64,000 bases of DNA, from positions 64,001 to 128,000 of IMG/VR virus record IMGVR_UViG_3300036715_002050. One strand, 5' to 3'. Shown one piece after another: positions 20,446 to 36,482 of the stretch; position 1 is the stretch's first letter; each line of letters starts with the position of its first letter. This DNA comes from a virus. The position numbers were made by a program, and so were the translations under genes. Below the pieces are notes generated by a model that saw nothing but the letters and a program-made list of their open reading frames with translations, did not search any database and was not told where the DNA came from.

Positions 20446-21134
20446 GTAGGGCAGGGCTGATAGCTCTCAACAAGTAGCGCCTAGACTATAGGTGGGCTAG
20501 GTGTCTAATGAAAGCGGTTTCTCCAACCGTTATTTGGAGTGTGGGCGTAATAGTAGGCTAGGGGATTGCCTAGAGGTAGTGTGACTCGTGTGGGCGCTTT
20601 TGGATGCGACCTACTATGAACGGGGCTACAGGTAAGGTTTCTCTAGTCGAAAAACAGGCCACAAACGCGGGTTGCGCGACGTACCCTAAACGGCGCGGAC
20701 AGACTGGCCCCACGGGCCCCCGGGTATGGGGAGCATACCGCAACGCCTGCTAGCACCCATAGCCTCTGCGTACGTCTGCAACCCTCTAAGGGGTTGTGGG
20801 CCCGGAAAGAGAGCCCCCTAGGCAAAACCCTAGGCAATACCTCGCGAGAGGGTTGGTCATATGGCCGTCAGGCTATCGTGCCAACAAACAGGAAGGCGCG
20901 GGCAGACAAAACGCGGGAGCCTGTCTAAATATGCGTAATGATTAGAGATTCCGTGAGAGTCGGGATCTGGTTGGCAGAGGCAAGCCGTGGTGACGGGAAT
21001 TATTCGGTTGTAGGAATAATGCTCGGAACGCGGTGCGCGCGCTGTCGGCTAGCTGTGATGGTCAATCCCGCGTGACTGGTGACACACCCGGACGGTTCAT
21101 CGTTCGGTGGCTGGGTTCGATTCCCAGGCGGGAC
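20446..21134 (+). ncRNA. Candidate large structured ncRNA ending in a tRNA-like domain
   Basis: No credible ORF; dense hairpins; 3' module TCCCGC/GCGGGA with T-arm CTGGG-TTCGATT-CCCAG (21066-21133). Confidence 0.5.
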
Positions 21135-21193
21135 ATTGTTGTACAGGGTTTCTCCCTTTAACTACGGGCGGAAACGCCCGGCGGAGTTCTACC

Positions 21194-21796
21194 ATGGCTA
21201 TCAAGCAAATCCGTATCCCGACGCACAACGTTTGTGTGGTCAAGGTGTTGGGCGCTGGGGCTGGCAAGTCGCCGCGTACGTCCACGCGGTGCGCGGTGGT
21301 GCCGGACCCGTGCGAGTGGTTGCGGAAGGCGCACGCGGGCGACGTGGTGGACGCGGGGCAGCACGCCGCGCCTGGTGGCAAGGCTCGGGCGGAAGTCTAC
21401 CGGGTGACGGTGCTGGACCCGGAAGCGGGGGATTTGCCGCCCAACGCGCCGAAGGCGTACCGGGATGCCTCCTTCAAGGCGGCTGCACGGTCTGCGGCAC
21501 GCAAGGCTCGGGTGGCTGGGGCGATTGTTGCGCCCGTGCCGGTCGCGGCTGTCAAGCCCACGGTCACTGTTACCGTGGTGGTGGATGCGCCCAAGGCTTT
21601 CAAGGCGCCCCGTGTGTCCAAGGCTTTGTCGGGTGCCACACCCAAGGCTTTGCCTGCCGCCAAGGGTGAGCGTAACGAGCCCGTCGGTAAGACGGTTGAC
21701 GTGTGCGTCCAGTGCAAGGCCCCGATTGGGTTGGACCATGAGGGCTCGCCCAAGGTTGGAATGGGTGGCGTCTGTTTCACGTGCGGCGAAAAGTAA
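21194..21796 (+). CDS. Basic Ala/Lys/Val-rich protein with C-terminal Zn finger
   Basis: GGAG RBS and ATG at 21194; CVQC...CFTC. Confidence 0.7.
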   Translation: MAIKQIRIPTHNVCVVKVLGAGAGKSPRTSTRCAVVPDPCEWLRKAHAGDVVDAGQHAAPGGKARAEVYRVTVLDPEAGDLPPNAPKAYRDASFKAAARSAARKARVAGAIVAPVPVAAVKPTVTVTVVVDAPKAFKAPRVSKALSGATPKALPAAKGERNEPVGKTVDVCVQCKAPIGLDHEGSPKVGMGGVCFTCGEK

Positions 21797-21874
21797 CAGC
21801 TTGTGCAGGGATGGGCCGCACACTCTAACGGGTTGCGGCTCGATTTGTTGTTCCCTTAACAAAAGGAAAGCAAA

Positions 21875-22099
21875 ATGTCCGTCGGGAATCCTTTTACGCG
21901 GCAGCTTGACACAAAGTTGTATGATGCGTCACAGCGGGTGGATTACATCCACGAAGACAAGTACGCTTCGCTTGGGGTTGCGGTGCTGGAAACGTGCCCG
22001 CTGGCTTTCTTGGCGCGGGAGGATCGTCCGCTGGATGCGGCACACTTGCCGGAAGCGTTGCGGCTGGATCAGGTCATGTCACGGCTGGCGTGGACCTGA
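21875..22099 (+). CDS. Hypothetical protein
   Basis: AAGGA RBS. Confidence 0.6.
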   Translation: MSVGNPFTRQLDTKLYDASQRVDYIHEDKYASLGVAVLETCPLAFLAREDRPLDAAHLPEALRLDQVMSRLAWT

Positions 22100-22327
22100 C
22101 ACATGCGCAACAATCCTATCCGTAAGTGTGAAAAGTGTGGGAAACGTACATCAGCCCACATTCTTGTACCATCCGTCAACAAGTATGGCGACGATTCCAA
22201 GCGCGTCATGCACTGTTGCTTGAAGTGTCAAGCAGAAAAGCGGGATCTGGAAAAAGACCGCTGACGTACCGGCACGTTTCGCTTAACGGCGGGGCGTGCC
22301 AATTGTTTAACCAGCAAAGGATTTGTC

Positions 22328-22675
22328 ATGCAAAAGTTTCCCAGCATCAAAGCGGTCCGCAAGGCGTTGGTCAAAATCAACAAAGACGTGGCCGGTTCTG
22401 CAAAAGAGGATGACGTGGAAGTGCGTCTGCAGGTGTTGGAGTCCGGGTATTGGGCTGTCCGGTTTGGGTCGGCGGATTACGACCAAGACCACCGTGGGTT
22501 GTGGGGCAGCGGGTACGTGCGCGGCGACCGGCGCAGGTTGAATTGCACGGACGTCGCCCGGGAGTTGCTTGACCAGTGCCGGGAGTCGTACGCGGAACAG
22601 CAAGCGTTCGCGGCTGCCGTGGCCCCGCAAGTGCGCGTCGACTTGGCTGCGCCGCGTTTCCCTGAAATTTGGTGA
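22328..22675 (+). CDS. Hypothetical phage protein
   Basis: AAGGA RBS; YDQDHRGLWG motif. Confidence 0.7.
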   Translation: MQKFPSIKAVRKALVKINKDVAGSAKEDDVEVRLQVLESGYWAVRFGSADYDQDHRGLWGSGYVRGDRRRLNCTDVARELLDQCRESYAEQQAFAAAVAPQVRVDLAAPRFPEIW

Positions 22676-22774
22676 CGTTTGGTAAAAAGCTTTTACAGCT
22701 TTACTGCGGCGTGTTTCTTAACGGAAACACGCCCGCGTTCGTTGTGGCGGTTAACCCCGAACGCGGAGCATAAC

Positions 22775-34297: not shown

Positions 34298-34708
34298 ATG
34301 TCCCGAGTTTACAAGAATGACGCCGACCGTGAACTGGCCGTAGCACTCCGCAAGGCCAAGAAGTTGCTGTTGACGCCAGGCAAGTGGTCCAAGGGCGCGT
34401 TGGCCCGAAACGCCGAGGGCGAGCCGCTCAATGGTGTGGCGGGGATCCGTGGTGACAATGCCGCTTCATTTTGCGCCGTTGGCGCAGTGATTCGTTGTGG
34501 TGGCAAACGTTCGATGAACATCTTGGACGCGGCGGTGTTCTCATACACACGCAACAACGAAAACTACGCGTCTCCTACCGACGACATCATGGCGTTCAAC
34601 GACGGCATGATCTCGTCACCCGAAGAACTCATGCCGGTGTTTGACATCGCGCTGGATCTGTTGCGCGCAAAGCCCACCAGCCGATCTTCCACCAAGTCCA
34701 CCAAGTAA
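34298..34708 (+). CDS. DUF6197-like family paralogue 6
   Basis: AKKLL..PGKWSKG...FCAVGAV...FND...EELMPVFD. Confidence 0.7.
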   Translation: MSRVYKNDADRELAVALRKAKKLLLTPGKWSKGALARNAEGEPLNGVAGIRGDNAASFCAVGAVIRCGGKRSMNILDAAVFSYTRNNENYASPTDDIMAFNDGMISSPEELMPVFDIALDLLRAKPTSRSSTKSTK

Positions 34709-36201
34709 GCCCGTTGTACCACGTAACACCACACAAAGGAGCACCATGAACACCAAAGGTAACCAAGGTAAGGCGAATCGTCAGTCCGATGCCGTACGCA
34801 AAGCCCGTCGTGCAGCCAACAAGGCCCGCCGCTTGCAGAAGATGTGGGACGACCGCCTCGAAACCCAGCGCATCTTGGCGGGCAACTACACGTACGAAGA
34901 GTTCCTGCAGCGCATGGGTAAGTGACATGGGGCGCTCTAATCAAGCGCCCACCGACGACAACCGCGCTTGGGCTATTGGATTGTGGATTGCCATGACCTT
35001 AGCGATGGTTGCGTTTGTGTTTGGTTACTTTGTTGGCGAATCTCGTGGTACTTTGCGCACCATCGAGCACTTTTCGATGTGTGACTGTAATTCTTTGACG
35101 GACGGTGGCTAGTGGACATGATTTTTGCGGGGCTAGAAACGCTTATCAAAGCTTTCGTAGCTTTGTTGGTGTTGTCCATGATCAGTCTGTTCGTGGCTGT
35201 TTATTTTGCCACCAAGTTTTACAACGAAGCGCACCCTAACCGCGACGTGATCGTAGAATGCACGTTGCACGCAGACGGCGGCATCGATTGCCGCCACAAG
35301 TAACAGGAGGATACAATGGAAGAACTGGATGCGGGCGTAGATGCCGGTACACTTTACACCACCGAGCAACAAACAGCAGACGCGGAACAGTCACACCACG
35401 ACCGCGTAGTCGTGTCCGAAGCAGCGATGTTCGTGCTCGTGGTGTTCGTGCTGGTTGCGTTGGCGGACAGCTTGACCCGGAAGAAGCCATGACCGCTTTT
35501 GTAGGGTTGGCGTTTTTGACTCTGTGCACTGGGCTGTTGTTGCTCGGCGCTCTGTTTGATGACGGTGACGATTAACCAAGTAATCTTGTAAGAATGTCCA
35601 ACAATCAACTAAAACAGAACCCTAACTATCCGCTATACGTGATCGTGTATGCGCAATCTGCACCCAATCCCGGCTTCTATGTGGTGGTTAATTTGCAAAC
35701 ATTGTTGCCGTCACCTACACAAGAAATCAATGCAGCGACACAGTGGCGCACCCAAGGGGATGCAGTAGCTTACTTGGCACTTAATCAAGTAGCTATTGGT
35801 GCAGCAGAAATCCGTCCGACTTACCACGTGCCCGCTTACTACTCTTCAATCTTGCCCCAATTGGGGCCCGAATAATCCGGAGCCAAATGACCATGCGACC
35901 CTATGGTACCAACGCTAACGATCCCCACAAACCTTGGCACGGTATAGATGTATGGCGTCAACGTCATAACCAAACGTATCGAGCTATCCGCCACCACGAA
36001 CGTGTGCGAGCACGACAAGCGGGAAAAGCCGAAACGGATTGGTGGTTTGATATCGATATGGTAGCTGAAACAATCTACGAACTGGAAGAAGAAGCTGTAC
36101 AATACCGCGATGACGTGTTGCGTTATGAAGCACGGGCGGCAGGGCTGCTTGACTCGTTGGCCGACCCGTGGTAGGCTGCTGTTCGTGGTCGCAGTCGTAG
36201 C

Positions 36202-36317
36202 GCCGCGCGATAGTGTTCGGGGAGACATAAGGTGTGCGCACACTGGAGTCATCTTTACCCCTCAATGGTAGCACACTCCCGGGAGGGAGTAGAATGGGTT
36301 CGATTCCCTTTCGCGGC
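36202..36317 (+). ncRNA. tRNA-like RNA with structured D-loop insert and tetraloop instead of anticodon
   Basis: GCCGCG/CGCGGC; D-stem GTGT/GCAC around ~54 nt; ACTCCC-GGGA-GGGAGT; GGG-TTCGATT-CCC. Confidence 0.6.
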
Positions 36318-36329
36318 TTTTTGTAGCAC

Positions 36330-36400
36330 GCTCTCATAGGTAAAAGGCATACCGCACCCCTTGTAAGGCTGAATTCTCAGTTCGATTCTGGGTGGGAGCT
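36330..36400 (+). tRNA. tRNA-Thr(TGT)
   Basis: GCTCTCA/TGGGAGC; loop CTTGTAA. Confidence 0.78.
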
Positions 36401-36412
36401 TTGTTGTAATGC

Positions 36413-36482
36413 GGACCCGAGGGACGGTTTCTCAGCCGGATCTTATAAGTTTGGTCAGACGGTTCAACTCCGTCCGGGTCTA
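36413..36482 (+). tRNA. tRNA-Ile(TAT), compact atypical
   Basis: GGACCCG/CGGGTCT; GCCGGAT-CTTATAA-GTTTGGT; GACGG-TTCAACT-CCGTC. Confidence 0.7.

What the first reader, a model, noticed from the sequence alone, without database searches (positions are those of the whole stretch)
21066..36482. Early genes appear 'punctuated' by tRNAs, tRNA mimics and hairpins, each followed by a TTGTTG motif
Seen: many intergenic gaps follow one layout: stop codon, structured element, TTGTTG(T)-like tract, RBS, ATG. The elements are real tRNAs (23027, 23663, 24360, 25419, 29623), T-arm mimics lacking anticodons (21066, 24867, 27075, ~28522-28580, 30055, and TTCRAT-loop junctions at ~30851 and ~31344) or simple hairpins. 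ATTTGTTGTGCCAAGTTTGTTGTA is identical after two different tRNAs (23735, 24431). The same TTGTTG linker follows tRNAs in the main cluster. Established: mitochondrial tRNA punctuation and t-elements, and RNase III processing of T7 early RNA. Inference: the phage uses RNase P/Z/E-type processing to cut its early transcript into individual mRNAs.
Basis: partly seen in the sequence, partly recalled or inferred. Interest (0 to 1): 0.8.

Follow-up and report, generated by a model that had tools for sequence, protein, structure and literature searches.

The report
Phage operon punctuated by tRNA-like elements
A long block of small phage genes with almost no promoters carries real tRNAs, shrunken tRNA look-alikes or stable hairpins in nearly every gap between genes, and the tRNA-type elements are followed by one U/G-rich linker, which suggests but does not prove that host tRNA-trimming enzymes cut one long transcript into separate messages.

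Summary
The layout is real. TTGTTGT is the most over-represented 7-mer in the non-coding + strand (21 seen, 2.16 expected). It abuts the 3' end of tRNAs and tRNA-like elements. "Each element" is overstated: by hand count 13 of 27 elements have TTGTTG within 12 nt (tRNAs 5/7, closed tRNA-like 3/3, Y-shaped 1/4, free hairpins 3/11).

All 36 tRNAs lack CCA, and their trailers are U/G-rich and C-poor (+1: T30 G5 A1 C0).

New here:
- A 13.4-kb stretch (20.4-33.8 kb) has no sigma70-like promoter, though promoters are frequent around it.
- Eight + strand hairpins share a UAAC-type apex with covarying stems.
- A family of three 43-49-nt Y-shaped mini tRNA-like junctions exists.
- Stable U-tract-less hairpins end 2-9 nt before five tRNA(-like) 5' ends.

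Best reading (about 0.5): a polycistronic operon cut by host RNase P/Z-type processing at tRNAs and tRNA-like elements, with hairpins protecting 3' ends.

No RNA data exist, and no close relatives were found for conservation tests. Rivals are decayed tRNA relics, weak terminators, and protein-binding hairpins.

Novelty: a new variant of a known kind (compare plant mitochondrial t-elements).

The parts
20005..20440 (+). Cluster of promoter-like sites just upstream of the operon. TTGACC-17-TAGGGT at 20411 matches my regex. Three further TTGACT sites at about 20005, 20149 and 20235 were seen by eye.
21047..21135 (+). Degenerate cloverleaf tRNA-like element in the operon leader (core 21066-21135). 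It has a 6-bp acceptor and a canonical 5-bp T-arm with a TTCGATT loop, and TTGTTGTAC follows directly.
   Evidence: ARAGORN -ps85 only; not in Rfam at E<=10; fold z -0.79
21813..21840 (+). Hairpin with a C-UAAC-G type apex, 16 nt after a stop codon. TTTGTTGT starts 5 nt after it.
   Evidence: 28.3 bits
22271..22300 (+). 13-bp hairpin with a UAAC apex and 4 G.U pairs.
   Evidence: 36.6 bits
22708..22733 (+). 11-bp hairpin with a UAAC apex.
   Evidence: 33.5 bits
22987..23017 (+). Hairpin without a U-tract that ends 9 nt before the 5' end of tRNA-Leu.
   Evidence: dG -15.6, z -2.89
23027..23107 (+). tRNA-Leu(CAA) without CCA. The trailer is TTGTTGTTTGTTGTAC and the next ATG is 43 nt downstream.
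   Evidence: (56.5 bits)
23419..23450 (+). Hairpin with a UUAG-type apex. It is the eighth member found by the hairpin model and was not in the training set.
   Evidence: 22.9 bits, E 0.0021
23663..23735 (+). tRNA-Lys(UUU) without CCA, followed by the 24-mer linker that holds two TTGTTGT copies.
   Evidence: 64.4 bits
24028..24052 (+). Hairpin with a C-UAAC-G apex. The ribosome-binding site follows directly and there is no TTGTTG.
   Evidence: 26.9 bits
24334..24355 (+). Hairpin without a U-tract that ends 4 nt before tRNA-Glu.
   Evidence: dG -14.7, z -1.98
24360..24431 (+). tRNA-Glu(UUC) without CCA, followed by the same 24-mer linker.
   Evidence: 59.8 bits
24836..24865 (+). UAAC-apex hairpin that ends 2-3 nt before the tRNA-like element at 24869.
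   Evidence: dG -20.7, z -4.29; 33.8 bits
24869..24991 (+). 123-nt tRNA-like element. An 8-bp acceptor-like closing helix and a T-arm-like hairpin (TTCAACT loop) enclose an odd interior, and TTTGTTGTAC follows.
   Evidence: closure p 0.001; fold z -2.47
25383..25413 (+). UAAC-apex hairpin that ends 5 nt before tRNA-Gln.
   Evidence: dG -20.5, z -4.58; 27.3 bits
25419..25489 (+). tRNA-Gln(UUG) without CCA. The trailer is TTTGTTAC.
   Evidence: (59.0 bits)
25870..25900 (+). Hairpin followed by A + TTTGTTAC. It is related to the hairpin at 32999.
26299..26330 (+). UAAC-apex hairpin.
   Evidence: 36.0 bits
26661..26693 (+). 13-bp hairpin with a GAAA loop, directly followed by TTTGTTGG. It is terminator-like.
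27075..27123 (+). Y-shaped mini tRNA-like junction. It has a 7-8-bp closing helix, a small hairpin and a T-loop hairpin (TTCAAAT), and the trailer is TTTGTAGC.
   Evidence: retrieved by the model built from the other two Y elements: 20.2 bits, E 0.0011; fold z -1.06
28407..28455 (+). Long hairpin directly followed by TTTGTTGTG. It is terminator-like.
28522..28579 (+). T-arm word (GCCG-TTCGAAT-CGGC) with a weak 5-bp closure. It overlaps a 20-codon mini-ORF and TTGTTGTT follows. The fold is not supported.
   Evidence: p 0.15; z -0.14
29604..29619 (+). Hairpin that ends 3 nt before tRNA-Leu.
   Evidence: dG -11.3, z -2.65
29623..29704 (+). tRNA-Leu(CAA) without CCA. The trailer is TTTGTTGTAC and the ATG is 38 nt downstream.
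   Evidence: (59.4 bits)
30051..30127 (+). Degenerate cloverleaf tRNA-like element. It has a 7-bp acceptor, a 5-bp T-arm and a 14-nt 'anticodon' loop, and the trailer is TTTGTTGTG.
   Evidence: ARAGORN -ps85; Rfam tRNA-Sec 21.3 bits, below the 47-bit cut-off; fold
30851..30893 (+). Y-shaped three-way junction with an 8-bp closing helix, a 4-bp hairpin and a GTC-TTCAAT-GAC hairpin. No TTGTTG follows.
   Evidence: fold z -3.10
31343..31386 (+). Homologous Y-shaped junction. Three of the 8 closing pairs are changed on both sides relative to the element at 30851.
   Evidence: fold z -2.42; alignment A2
31982..32026 (+). Possible fourth Y-shaped junction, followed by TTATTTGTTGTAAC.
   Evidence: fold z -1.13; model hit of only 10.9 bits, E 0.73
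32999..33025 (+). Hairpin after a stop codon. No TTGTTG follows.
33795..33850 (+). First promoter-like site after the promoter-free stretch (TTGACT-17-TACAGT). It overlaps a 15-bp-stem hairpin at 33809-33850.
36291..36317 (+). T-arm plus 3' acceptor fragment with trailer TTTTTGTAGCAC, similar to the 3' part of the 27075 element. It lies directly before tRNA-Thr. No supported closure.
   Evidence: p 0.19; z 0.16
36330..36483 (+). tRNA-Thr(UGU) followed by TTGTTGTAATGC and then tRNA-Ile(UAU). The next ATG is 36 nt after tRNA-Ile.
   Evidence: (Thr 50.8 bits; Ile by ARAGORN only)

Best explanation
Window 20.4-33.8 kb is one long, GC-rich, promoter-poor operon of small genes in an actinophage-like virus. 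I take it to be an early operon.

Its intergenic gaps hold four kinds of RNA-level element on the + strand:
- intact CCA-less tRNAs;
- degenerate tRNA-like elements that keep an acceptor-like closing helix and a T-arm;
- 43-49-nt Y-shaped mini versions of these;
- tetraloop-capped hairpins.

TTGTTGT(A/G)C is the phage's standard tRNA 3' trailer and spacer. It is U/G-rich and C-poor, so it lacks the cytidines that block RNase Z.

Inferred mechanism:
1. Host RNase P cuts at the 5' end of each tRNA or tRNA-like element, and RNase Z (or an equivalent endonuclease) cuts after the discriminator.
2. These cuts release the tRNAs and at the same time divide the transcript.
3. Hairpins that end 2-9 nt upstream of the elements, or that follow stop codons, protect the new mRNA 3' ends.
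4. The downstream mRNA starts with a uniform leader of about 30 nt that begins UUGUUGU.

Shown here: the anatomy, the statistics, and RNA-level strand-specific structure. Inferred: co-transcription. Not shown: any cleavage.
For: 1. Motif: TTGTTGT in the non-coding + strand is 23 against 2.36 +/- 1.52 in shuffles. It is the top 7-mer at 21 against 2.16. Information is confined to about 9-10 nt.
2. It is a tRNA trailer. In 36 of 36 tRNAs there is no CCA. Position +1 is T30 G5 A1 C0. The first 8 nt pooled are T134 G84 A45 C25 of 288 (C depletion p 1e-12). It forms whole spacers of 6-9 nt between main-cluster tRNAs, where neither a terminator nor a promoter makes sense.
3. RNase Z cuts after the discriminator and is suppressed by cytidines there (PMC7479834, passage).
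4. Co-transcription: the tool's scan finds no + strand promoter-like site in 19000-33794. My regex gives 41 sites on + against 12 on -, with none between 20411 and 33795. ATG lies 13-16 nt after three main-cluster tRNAs and 36-45 nt after six others.
5. tRNA-like elements: orphan T-arm words are concentrated on the + strand between 5.5 and 36.4 kb. Acceptor-like closure gives Fisher p 0.0028 for the 9 motif-found orphans.
6. The 24869 element folds with z -2.47 and the Y elements with z -3.10 and -2.42. Three compensatory pair changes separate the two Y elements. A model built from those two retrieves 27070-27130 at E 0.0011.
7. Hairpins without U-tracts end 2-9 nt before 5 of the 6 tRNA(-like) 5' ends in 22.9-29.7 kb, with z -2.0 to -4.6. 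Only 2 of 11 main-cluster controls reach z <= -2. A real terminator in that position would silence the tRNA.
8. RNA-level evidence: 76.9% of cells paired against 60.0 +/- 3.7, and covariation 0.568 against 0.285, with 0 of 500 shuffles reaching either. The + strand fold is more stable than the - strand fold in 16 of 20 elements (p 0.0024), with 31 G.U pairs.
9. Near-identical strains carry 5 of 37 SNPs in non-coding sequence, against 29.8% expected (p 0.018).
10. Precedent: plant mitochondrial t-elements and acceptor-like stem-loops act as RNase P/Z signals (PMC1920247, passages).
Against: - There is no RNA evidence at all; no listed run is RNA.
- Single-element support is modest. Closure p values for the nine motif-found orphans run from 0.047 to 0.33, and only the hand-picked 24869 element reaches 0.001. 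A stricter fixed-register test gave a combined p of only 0.039.
- Fold z-scores are unremarkable for 21047 (-0.79), 27075 (-1.06) and 30051 (-0.20), and absent for 28522 and 36207.
- The two best-folding Y elements are not followed by the motif. Only 3-4 of 11 free hairpins are.
- No element other than the true tRNAs reaches the Rfam tRNA threshold.
- No close relatives were found, so conservation across phages is untested.
- The host is unknown, so its RNase set is inferred.
- Gene calls and the promoter regex are my own simple scripts.
- The last three elements were hand-picked.
- Paralog-based covariation can be inflated by shared descent.
Confidence: 0.5

Rival explanations
1. Evolutionary debris. 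The T-arm mimics are decaying tRNA genes or 3' tRNA fragments left by rearrangement or insertion into a former tRNA array. TTGTTG is their inherited trailer, copied along with them. On this reading neither has a role beyond the true tRNAs.
For: - The 24-mer linker is duplicated after two different tRNAs.
- The T-arm fragments at 27104 and 36298 share similar 3' parts and trailers.
- Two fragments (28522, 36207) have no supported fold.
- Degenerate tRNAs also sit in the main cluster at 6617, 11640 and 12235.
- The same trailer is used throughout the main cluster.
Against: - Acceptor-like closing helices occur beyond chance.
- An 8-bp closure spans 123 nt at 24869 (p 0.001).
- The Y elements show compensatory changes, and a third member was retrieved by the model.
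- The motif lies 27-37 nt from the start codon in 11 of 14 cases (hand count).
- Non-coding SNP density is low.
- Relic 3' fragments would not be expected to keep a 5' partner strand.
Confidence: 0.18
2. Weak or regulated intrinsic terminators (attenuators). The hairpin or acceptor stem together with the UUUGUUGU tract pauses or terminates the host polymerase and grades expression along the operon.
For: - Hairpins follow stop codons by 4-32 nt.
- At least three (25870, 26661, 28407) are followed directly by (A)TTTGTT.
- The scan lists 22271, 25876 and a few others as terminator-like.
Against: - Terminator-like sites are not enriched: 29 against 23.2 +/- 5.8 in shuffles.
- Most UAAC hairpins lack an adjacent T-tract.
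- Hairpins that end 2-9 nt before tRNAs have no T-tract at all.
- The motif forms 6-9-nt spacers inside the tRNA cluster.
- No + strand promoter is available to restart transcription for 13.4 kb.
- The clearer terminators I saw elsewhere in the record carry T4-5 runs.
Confidence: 0.12
3. The UAAC-apex hairpins are binding sites for a phage or host RNA-binding protein. Candidates are boxB-like sites for an N-type antiterminator or sites for a translational regulator. On this reading they are not processing signals.
For: - Eight + strand hairpins lie within 4.5 kb and share an invariant apex over covarying stems.
- The apex YUAACG resembles the CUAACC hexaloop of phage phi21 boxB, whose UAAC adopts a GNRA-like fold bound by the N peptide (PMC12550061, passages).
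- A small arginine-rich ORF sits at 34746-34925 (read).
Against: - I saw no conserved boxA-like word upstream by eye.
- No N-like family match was found: Pfam and PHROGs are blank for the small ORFs.
- Eight sites, one per gap, is unlike nut-site usage.
- A UAAC tetraloop on a Y.G pair could simply be a stable cap.
Confidence: 0.08
4. TTGTTGT(A/G)C is a DNA-level signal. It could be a stoperator-like binding site or part of a phage-specific promoter placed about 30 nt before the start codons.
For: - The motif is strand-specific, intergenic and present in many copies.
- Its spacing to the ATG is tight (hand count).
- A weak sigma70 region 2 match (14.7-16.5 bits, below the cut-off) occurs in a 334-aa ORF of the left arm.
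Against: - Information content is limited to about 9-10 nt, with nothing conserved downstream.
- The motif abuts the discriminator base with zero spacing and fills 6-9-nt tRNA spacers.
- No single-subunit RNA polymerase was found, but that search's control was silent, so it says little.
Confidence: 0.05

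Closest known systems
Plant mitochondrial t-elements and acceptor-like stem-loops (Forner et al. 2007, PMC1920247; passages read)
   Same: Non-canonical tRNA-like structures, found there through the GGTTCRANYCC T-arm word, sit beside mRNAs. Together with true tRNAs and simple stem-loops they mark ends attributed to RNase P and RNase Z. 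The same mix of tRNA, tRNA-like element and hairpin is seen here.
   Different: That system is in an organelle, has mapped transcript ends and has no shared linear trailer motif. This one is in a phage, has no RNA data, carries a dedicated U/G-rich trailer and includes very small (43-49 nt) Y-shaped versions.
Animal mitochondrial tRNA punctuation (Ojala et al. 1981, recalled; review PMC3790967 seen only as an abstract in the listing)
   Same: tRNAs embedded in a polycistronic transcript are excised, and this releases the flanking mRNAs. Three genes here start 13-16 nt after a tRNA.
   Different: There the tRNAs abut the coding sequences directly, and nearly every junction has a tRNA. Here leaders with ribosome-binding sites remain, and many junctions have hairpins or nothing.
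Engineered t-element-flanked crRNA in Haloferax (PMC4326828; abstract in the listing only)
   Same: It indicates that an RNA can be matured in a prokaryote independently of its usual nuclease. The use of flanking t-elements cut by RNase P and tRNase Z is recalled by me; it is not stated in the abstract lines I saw.
   Different: That construct is artificial and archaeal. It is not a natural operon grammar.
RNase III processing of phage T7 early RNA, and the T4 promoter-stem-loop (PeSL) cassettes (both recalled, no paper read)
   Same: Phage early regions with repeated intergenic structured signals between small genes. The PeSL idea of repeated intergenic modules that aid gene shuffling could also apply to the duplicated linkers and the six DUF6197 paralogs.
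   Different: The stems here are 10-13 bp, not the roughly 20-bp RNase III type. No promoters accompany the hairpins. tRNA-derived elements are involved.
phi21 boxB (CUAACC hexaloop; PMC12550061, passages)
   Same: A hairpin whose apex contains UAAC.
   Different: No boxA and no N-like protein were identified. There are eight copies, one per gap. The closing pair is Y.G, not C.C.
Intrinsic terminators
   Same: A GC-rich hairpin after a stop codon, in some cases followed by a T-rich tract.
   Different: The T-tract is interrupted or displaced, there is no enrichment over shuffles, and several hairpins sit immediately upstream of tRNAs.

Membership tests
tRNA (Rfam RF00005) | Cloverleaf scoring at or above the 29-bit gathering threshold | tested here: met
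   Met for 23027, 23663, 24360, 25419, 29623 and 36330, at 50.8-64.4 bits. The tRNA at 36413 is called by ARAGORN only.
tRNA (Rfam RF00005) | The same threshold applied to the 'mimics' (21047, 24869, 27075, 28522, 30051, 30851, 31343, 36291) | tested here: not met
   None is listed at gathering. At E<=10 only 30051-30126 appears, as tRNA-Sec at 21.3 bits against a 47-bit cut-off. ARAGORN calls 21047 and 30051 only when relaxed to -ps85.
t-element (tRNA-like processing signal) | T-arm word of the GGTTCRANYCC type | tested here: met
   GGTTCRAWTCC occurs at 21114, 27103, 30105 and 36297. GTTCRAWTC occurs at 28559. The elements at 24969, 30878 and 31368 have only T-loop-like TTCAACT or TTCRAT loops.
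t-element (tRNA-like processing signal) | Acceptor-like helix that closes the element, with its 3' strand ending at the trailer | tested here: inconclusive
   Collectively beyond chance: Fisher p 0.0028 for 9 elements and 6.4e-6 for 12, of which 3 were hand-picked. Individually clear only for 24869 (p 0.001) and the Y elements (p 0.024-0.037). A fixed-register test gave p 0.039.
t-element (tRNA-like processing signal) | Transcript 5'/3' ends that coincide with the element borders, or cleavage by RNase P/Z | not testable with these tools
   No RNA run holds the stretch.
RNase Z substrate | No encoded CCA and no cytidines just after the discriminator | tested here: met
   0 of 36 tRNAs have C at +1 and 1 of 36 at +2. 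The trailers of 21135, 24991, 27123, 28579 and 30127 are C-free for at least 7 nt. The rule itself is taken from PMC7479834.
Intrinsic terminator | GC-rich stem directly followed by a U-tract, enriched over chance | tested here: not met
   29 sites against 23.2 +/- 5.8 in shuffles. Only 22271 and 25876 among the post-stop hairpins are listed.
boxB/nut antitermination site | GNRA-like hairpin together with a boxA word and a cognate N-type protein | tested here: inconclusive
   The apex resembles CUAACC. I saw no boxA by eye. No family match was found for the small ORFs.
Stoperator-type DNA site | Well-conserved asymmetric site of about 13 bp (site length recalled) | tested here: not met
   Information is confined to about 9-10 nt.
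Y RNA-like (YrlA) tRNA mimic with Ro protein | Rfam Y-RNA-like match and a TROVE-domain protein in the phage | tested here: not met
   No such Rfam hit. No TROVE match in the held record.

The most novel reading that the evidence does not exclude
The phage has evolved its own punctuation code for host tRNA-processing enzymes. Miniaturised tRNA-like elements, down to 43-49-nt Y-shaped junctions and perhaps about 12-bp tetraloop hairpins acting as minihelix mimics, would be cut by host RNase P and RNase Z. A C-free UUGUUGU trailer marks the 3' cut. Together they would turn a 13-kb promoter-less transcript into individual mRNAs with protected 3' hairpins and uniform leaders of about 30 nt. That would be a bacterial-virus counterpart of mitochondrial tRNA punctuation and t-elements.
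Probability: 0.3. Interest if true: 0.8.

Novelty: new variant of a known kind. Interest (0 to 1): 0.6.

Why it matters
If the tRNA-like elements are cut, this would be a natural case of a phage using host RNase P/Z as its mRNA-maturation machinery through dedicated minimal substrates. It would explain how a long promoter-less block of tiny genes is expressed gene by gene. It would give a function to 'pseudo-tRNAs' in tRNA-rich phages. It would also yield very small natural processing tags (43-49 nt plus a 7-9-nt trailer) that could be tested as tools for polycistronic expression in Actinobacteria. My three literature searches (top listings only) showed no phage report of this kind.

Tried and rejected
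- RNA evidence: no RNA holder is listed for 21000-30999.
- Laying the four DNA runs gave only near-identical strains, about 37 SNP rows and no covariation information.
- Relatives, protein scans: DUF932 and GP88 proteins gave none in viral or metagenome contigs. Megablast against phages matched only tRNA fragments. tblastn gave 28% identity or less.
- Relatives, larger proteins: an 810-aa intein-bearing ATPase gave 23 loci at 52% identity or less. The closest record shares 12 proteins at about 37-40% identity but holds a single tRNA.
- Pattern 'T-arm + 10 nt + ATTTGTTGT': 1 viral, 84 genome and 70 metagenome stretches, each with a single match and scattered over phyla. This gives no host and no kin signal. 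A looser pattern gave 0 of 5 large distant relatives.
- The Y-element model found nothing significant in 26 other loci; the best E was 0.098.
- Rfam: no family other than tRNA at gathering.
- Phage-encoded RNA enzymes: no TROVE, PolyA_pol (CCA-adding head), Lactamase_B_2 (RNase Z type) or RNase III match in the held, 85%-complete record. The T7-type RNA polymerase search had a silent control.
- PHROGs: 18 of 20 small ORFs had no match and the other two matched only families of unknown function.
- Control phage Magritte (64% GC, similar layout): trailers are not T-rich (+1: G11 A9 C3 T1 of 24) and TTGTTGT is absent from the + strand. The linker is therefore not a general actinophage trait.
Relatives cannot be drawn for a virus record.
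- Supplementary files of papers were not consulted.
- Structure prediction and complex prediction were not used, because no protein claim depends on them.

Full report
CONTEXT

The window is bases 64001-128000 of a 137,415-bp IMG/VR virus record rated 85% complete. Pfam families typical of actinobacteriophages occur in the region. They are six DUF6197 paralogs, GP88, L5 gp82-like and DUF932. tblastn hits of the DUF932 protein are to Streptomyces, Mycobacterium, Arthrobacter, Gordonia and Microbacterium phages at 28% identity or less. An actinobacterial host is therefore an inference.

From about 3.8 kb onward almost everything is on the + strand. A main cluster of 29 tRNAs lies at 5541-12088, and many small genes follow. 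Gene calls are from my own simple caller. I hand-curated them for 20.7-36.9 kb and corrected one start.

OBSERVATION

An unbiased word count over + strand non-coding sequence, with tRNAs masked, ranks TTGTTGT first. It occurs 21 times against 2.16 expected (p 2.7e-14), ahead of the ribosome-binding-site words. T-arm words are still enriched after masking. Dinucleotide shuffles of the non-coding segments give 2.36 +/- 1.52 against 23 observed, and 0 of 300 shuffles reach 23. Of the 34 + strand copies, 23 are non-coding, although non-coding sequence is only 26.8% of the window. The reverse-complement word has 6 of its 10 copies in non-coding sequence. Information is confined to about (T)TTGTTGT(A/G)C.

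By hand classification of 27 elements, TTGTTG begins within 12 nt of the 3' end as follows:

| Class | With TTGTTG |
|---|---|
| tRNAs | 5 of 7 |
| Closed tRNA-like elements | 3 of 3 |
| Y-shaped elements | 1 of 4 |
| Weak T-arm fragments | 1 of 2 |
| Free-standing hairpins | 3 of 11 |

The motif therefore belongs mainly to tRNAs and tRNA-like elements, not to 'each' element. From motif to start codon the distance is 27-37 nt in 11 of 14 cases (hand count).

WHAT THE LINKER IS

All 36 tRNAs lack an encoded CCA. Position +1 of the trailer is T in 30, G in 5, A in 1 and C in 0. The first 8 nt pooled are T134 G84 A45 C25 of 288. TTGTTG-like words make up whole 6-9-nt spacers between adjacent tRNAs in the main cluster. 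In that position neither a terminator nor a promoter is sensible.

RNase Z cuts after the discriminator and is strongly inhibited by cytidines there (PMC7479834, introduction passage). A C-poor, U-rich trailer is what such a substrate needs.

The linker is specific to this phage:
- A similarly organised Microbacterium phage (Magritte) has G/A-starting trailers and no + strand TTGTTGT in 40.9 kb.
- The 'T-arm + 10 nt + ATTTGTTGT' pattern is found only as single, scattered matches in 1 viral, 84 genome and 70 metagenome stretches.

ONE LONG OPERON

The tool's scan finds no + strand promoter-like site between 19000 and 33794. All six + strand sites lie at 33795-36591. My regex TTGACN-16..19-TAnnnT gives 41 sites on the + strand and 12 on the - strand in the record. 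Within the window's + strand region there are 22, with none between 20411 and 33795. That is a 13.4-kb gap where about 5 sites would be expected at the average density. This estimate is post hoc and rough.

A cluster of promoter-like sites sits at 20.0-20.4 kb. The stretch is also GC-rich, at 55-61% against about 50% around it. Its tRNAs are only 53-81% identical to the main-cluster isoacceptors, so it looks like a distinct module.

Start codons lie 13-16 nt after three main-cluster tRNAs (genes at 8989, 9348 and 10910). They lie 36-45 nt after six further tRNAs. These genes must be transcribed together with the tRNA.

tRNA-LIKE ELEMENTS

GTTCRAWTC occurs 32 times on the + strand against 3 on the - strand. 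Nine copies are outside default tRNA calls, and one of these (11733-11804) passes Rfam at 32.1 bits.
- 21047-21135 and 30051-30127 fold as degenerate cloverleaves. ARAGORN calls them only when relaxed.
- 24869-24991 has an 8-bp closing helix and a T-arm-like hairpin around a 100-nt interior (closure p 0.001, fold z -2.47).
- 30851-30893 and 31343-31386 are homologous three-way junctions (z -3.10 and -2.42). Three of their 8 closing pairs are changed on both sides.
- A covariance model built from these two junctions retrieves 27070-27130 as the next best hit in 64 kb on both strands (20.2 bits, rough E 0.0011). 31974-32035 is not significant (E 0.73).
- No significant hit was found in 26 other loci.

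Across the nine orphans found by the motif alone, an upstream partner for the strand after the T-arm is better than in shuffles (Fisher p 0.0028). A stricter fixed-register version gave p 0.039. 28522-28579 and 36207-36320 have no supported fold.

HAIRPINS

Seven hairpins share the apex C-Y-UAAC-G-G over stems that differ:
- 76.9% of cells are paired against 60.0 +/- 3.7.
- Covariation is 0.568 against 0.285, and 0 of 500 shuffles reach either value.
- 8 of 13 pairs are changed on both sides.
- All slid controls are at or below 53.8% paired.

The model built from them finds one further member, 23419-23450 (E 0.0021). All eight hits with E<0.01 are on the + strand, between 21.8 and 26.3 kb. Other hairpins carry GAAA or GUAAAAG loops. 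Over 20 elements the + strand RNA fold is more stable than the - strand fold in 16 (Wilcoxon p 0.0024), with 31 G.U pairs. These are therefore sense-strand RNA structures.

Five of the six tRNA or tRNA-like 5' ends between 22.9 and 29.7 kb are preceded, 2-9 nt upstream, by a stable hairpin without a T-tract (z -2.0 to -4.6). Two of 11 main-cluster controls reach z <= -2. A functional terminator in that position would silence the tRNA. A 3' end protector left after an RNase P cut fits better. Terminator-like sites are not enriched overall, at 29 against 23.2 +/- 5.8.

INTERPRETATION

The best-supported reading is a polycistronic operon that host tRNA-processing enzymes segment at the true tRNAs. 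That step is close to unavoidable if the tRNAs are functional and co-transcribed. With less certainty, the tRNA-like elements are cut too. The linker would serve as the 3' processing trailer and the start of the next leader, and the hairpins would stabilise 3' ends. This is the logic of plant mitochondrial t-elements and acceptor-like stem-loops (PMC1920247, passages).

No phage-encoded RNase Z-type, RNase III, CCA-adding or Ro protein was found in the held record, so host enzymes would be used. Near-identical strains in four metagenome runs carry 5 of 37 SNPs in non-coding sequence, against 29.8% expected (p 0.018). That is a weak sign of constraint.

Cleavage itself is not shown, and neither is co-transcription. 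No RNA run holds the region, and no close relative exists in the collections searched. The rivals are relic tRNA fragments, weak terminators, boxB-like protein-binding hairpins (the apex resembles the phi21 CUAACC loop; PMC12550061) and a DNA-level site. They are weighed in their own sections.

LITERATURE

Three searches (I saw listings and abstracts, plus passages of four papers) showed no report of tRNA punctuation or t-elements in a phage. Subscription journals and supplements were not covered.

VERDICT

I class it as a new variant of a known kind and set interest at 0.6.

Noticed in passing
window 19400-19740 (and 19740-19830): An array of about 33 head-to-tail 10-bp units of the form nnnnGTGGGn, in phase with the DNA helix. 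A CACAC/CCCAC-rich stretch in the opposite sense follows. It lies in a 1.9-kb gene-free region just upstream of the promoter-like cluster. It could be an origin, a protein-binding array or bent DNA.
   Followed up: no
window 20019-20050 and 20166-20196: A direct repeat of about 30 bp. Each copy follows a TTGACT word, so these look like duplicated promoter and leader starts.
   Followed up: no
window 8989-9258 and 9348-9506: Two small paralogous ORFs, each starting 13-16 nt after a tRNA-Gln. Both give weak matches to the EF-Ts N-terminal/UBA domain (17.6 and 28.5 bits, below the 33.2-bit cut-off).
   Followed up: partly
window 10826-10896: A tRNA with anticodon CTA (amber-suppressor type), labelled Pyl by ARAGORN and scoring 55.8 bits in Rfam. 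I did not examine whether the phage reads TAG through.
   Followed up: no
window 51436-53637 and 54668-57100: Two AAA-type ATPase genes, each interrupted by an intein-like Hint plus homing-endonuclease module.
   Followed up: no
window 23026-29704 and 61447-62400: [quoted passage not shown] Early supply of these tRNAs could be counter-defence.
   Followed up: partly
window 25023, 25532, 26360, 26728, 30930, 34298: Six DUF6197 paralogs lie in one operon. Several share a near-identical start context (AGGAG-N-CGCAC-ATG), reminiscent of start-associated sequences (that comparison is recalled).
   Followed up: partly
window 28492-28554: A 20-codon mini-ORF with a strong ribosome-binding site. It begins with a 15-nt tandem duplication and overlaps the 5' part of the weak T-arm element.
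   Followed up: no
window 28882-29622: About 740 nt without a convincing ORF, upstream of tRNA-Leu. It is partly AT-rich with palindromes. No Rfam family matches.
   Followed up: no
window 4156-4830, 16411-16923, 57715-58266: Peptide deformylase, NADAR-domain and Dam-type methyltransferase genes.
   Followed up: no
G000:C1:15615-16619 (- strand; L182:1066-2070): A 334-aa ORF with a weak sigma70 region 2 match (14.7-16.5 bits, below the 24-bit cut-off). It may be a phage sigma-like factor.
   Followed up: partly
L181 (Microbacterium phage Magritte) 8011-9642 and about 9736: The annotated Ro-like RNA-binding protein is followed by an orphan T-arm word, as expected for a Y RNA-like tRNA mimic. 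Three more orphan T-arm words lie inside its tRNA cluster.
   Followed up: no
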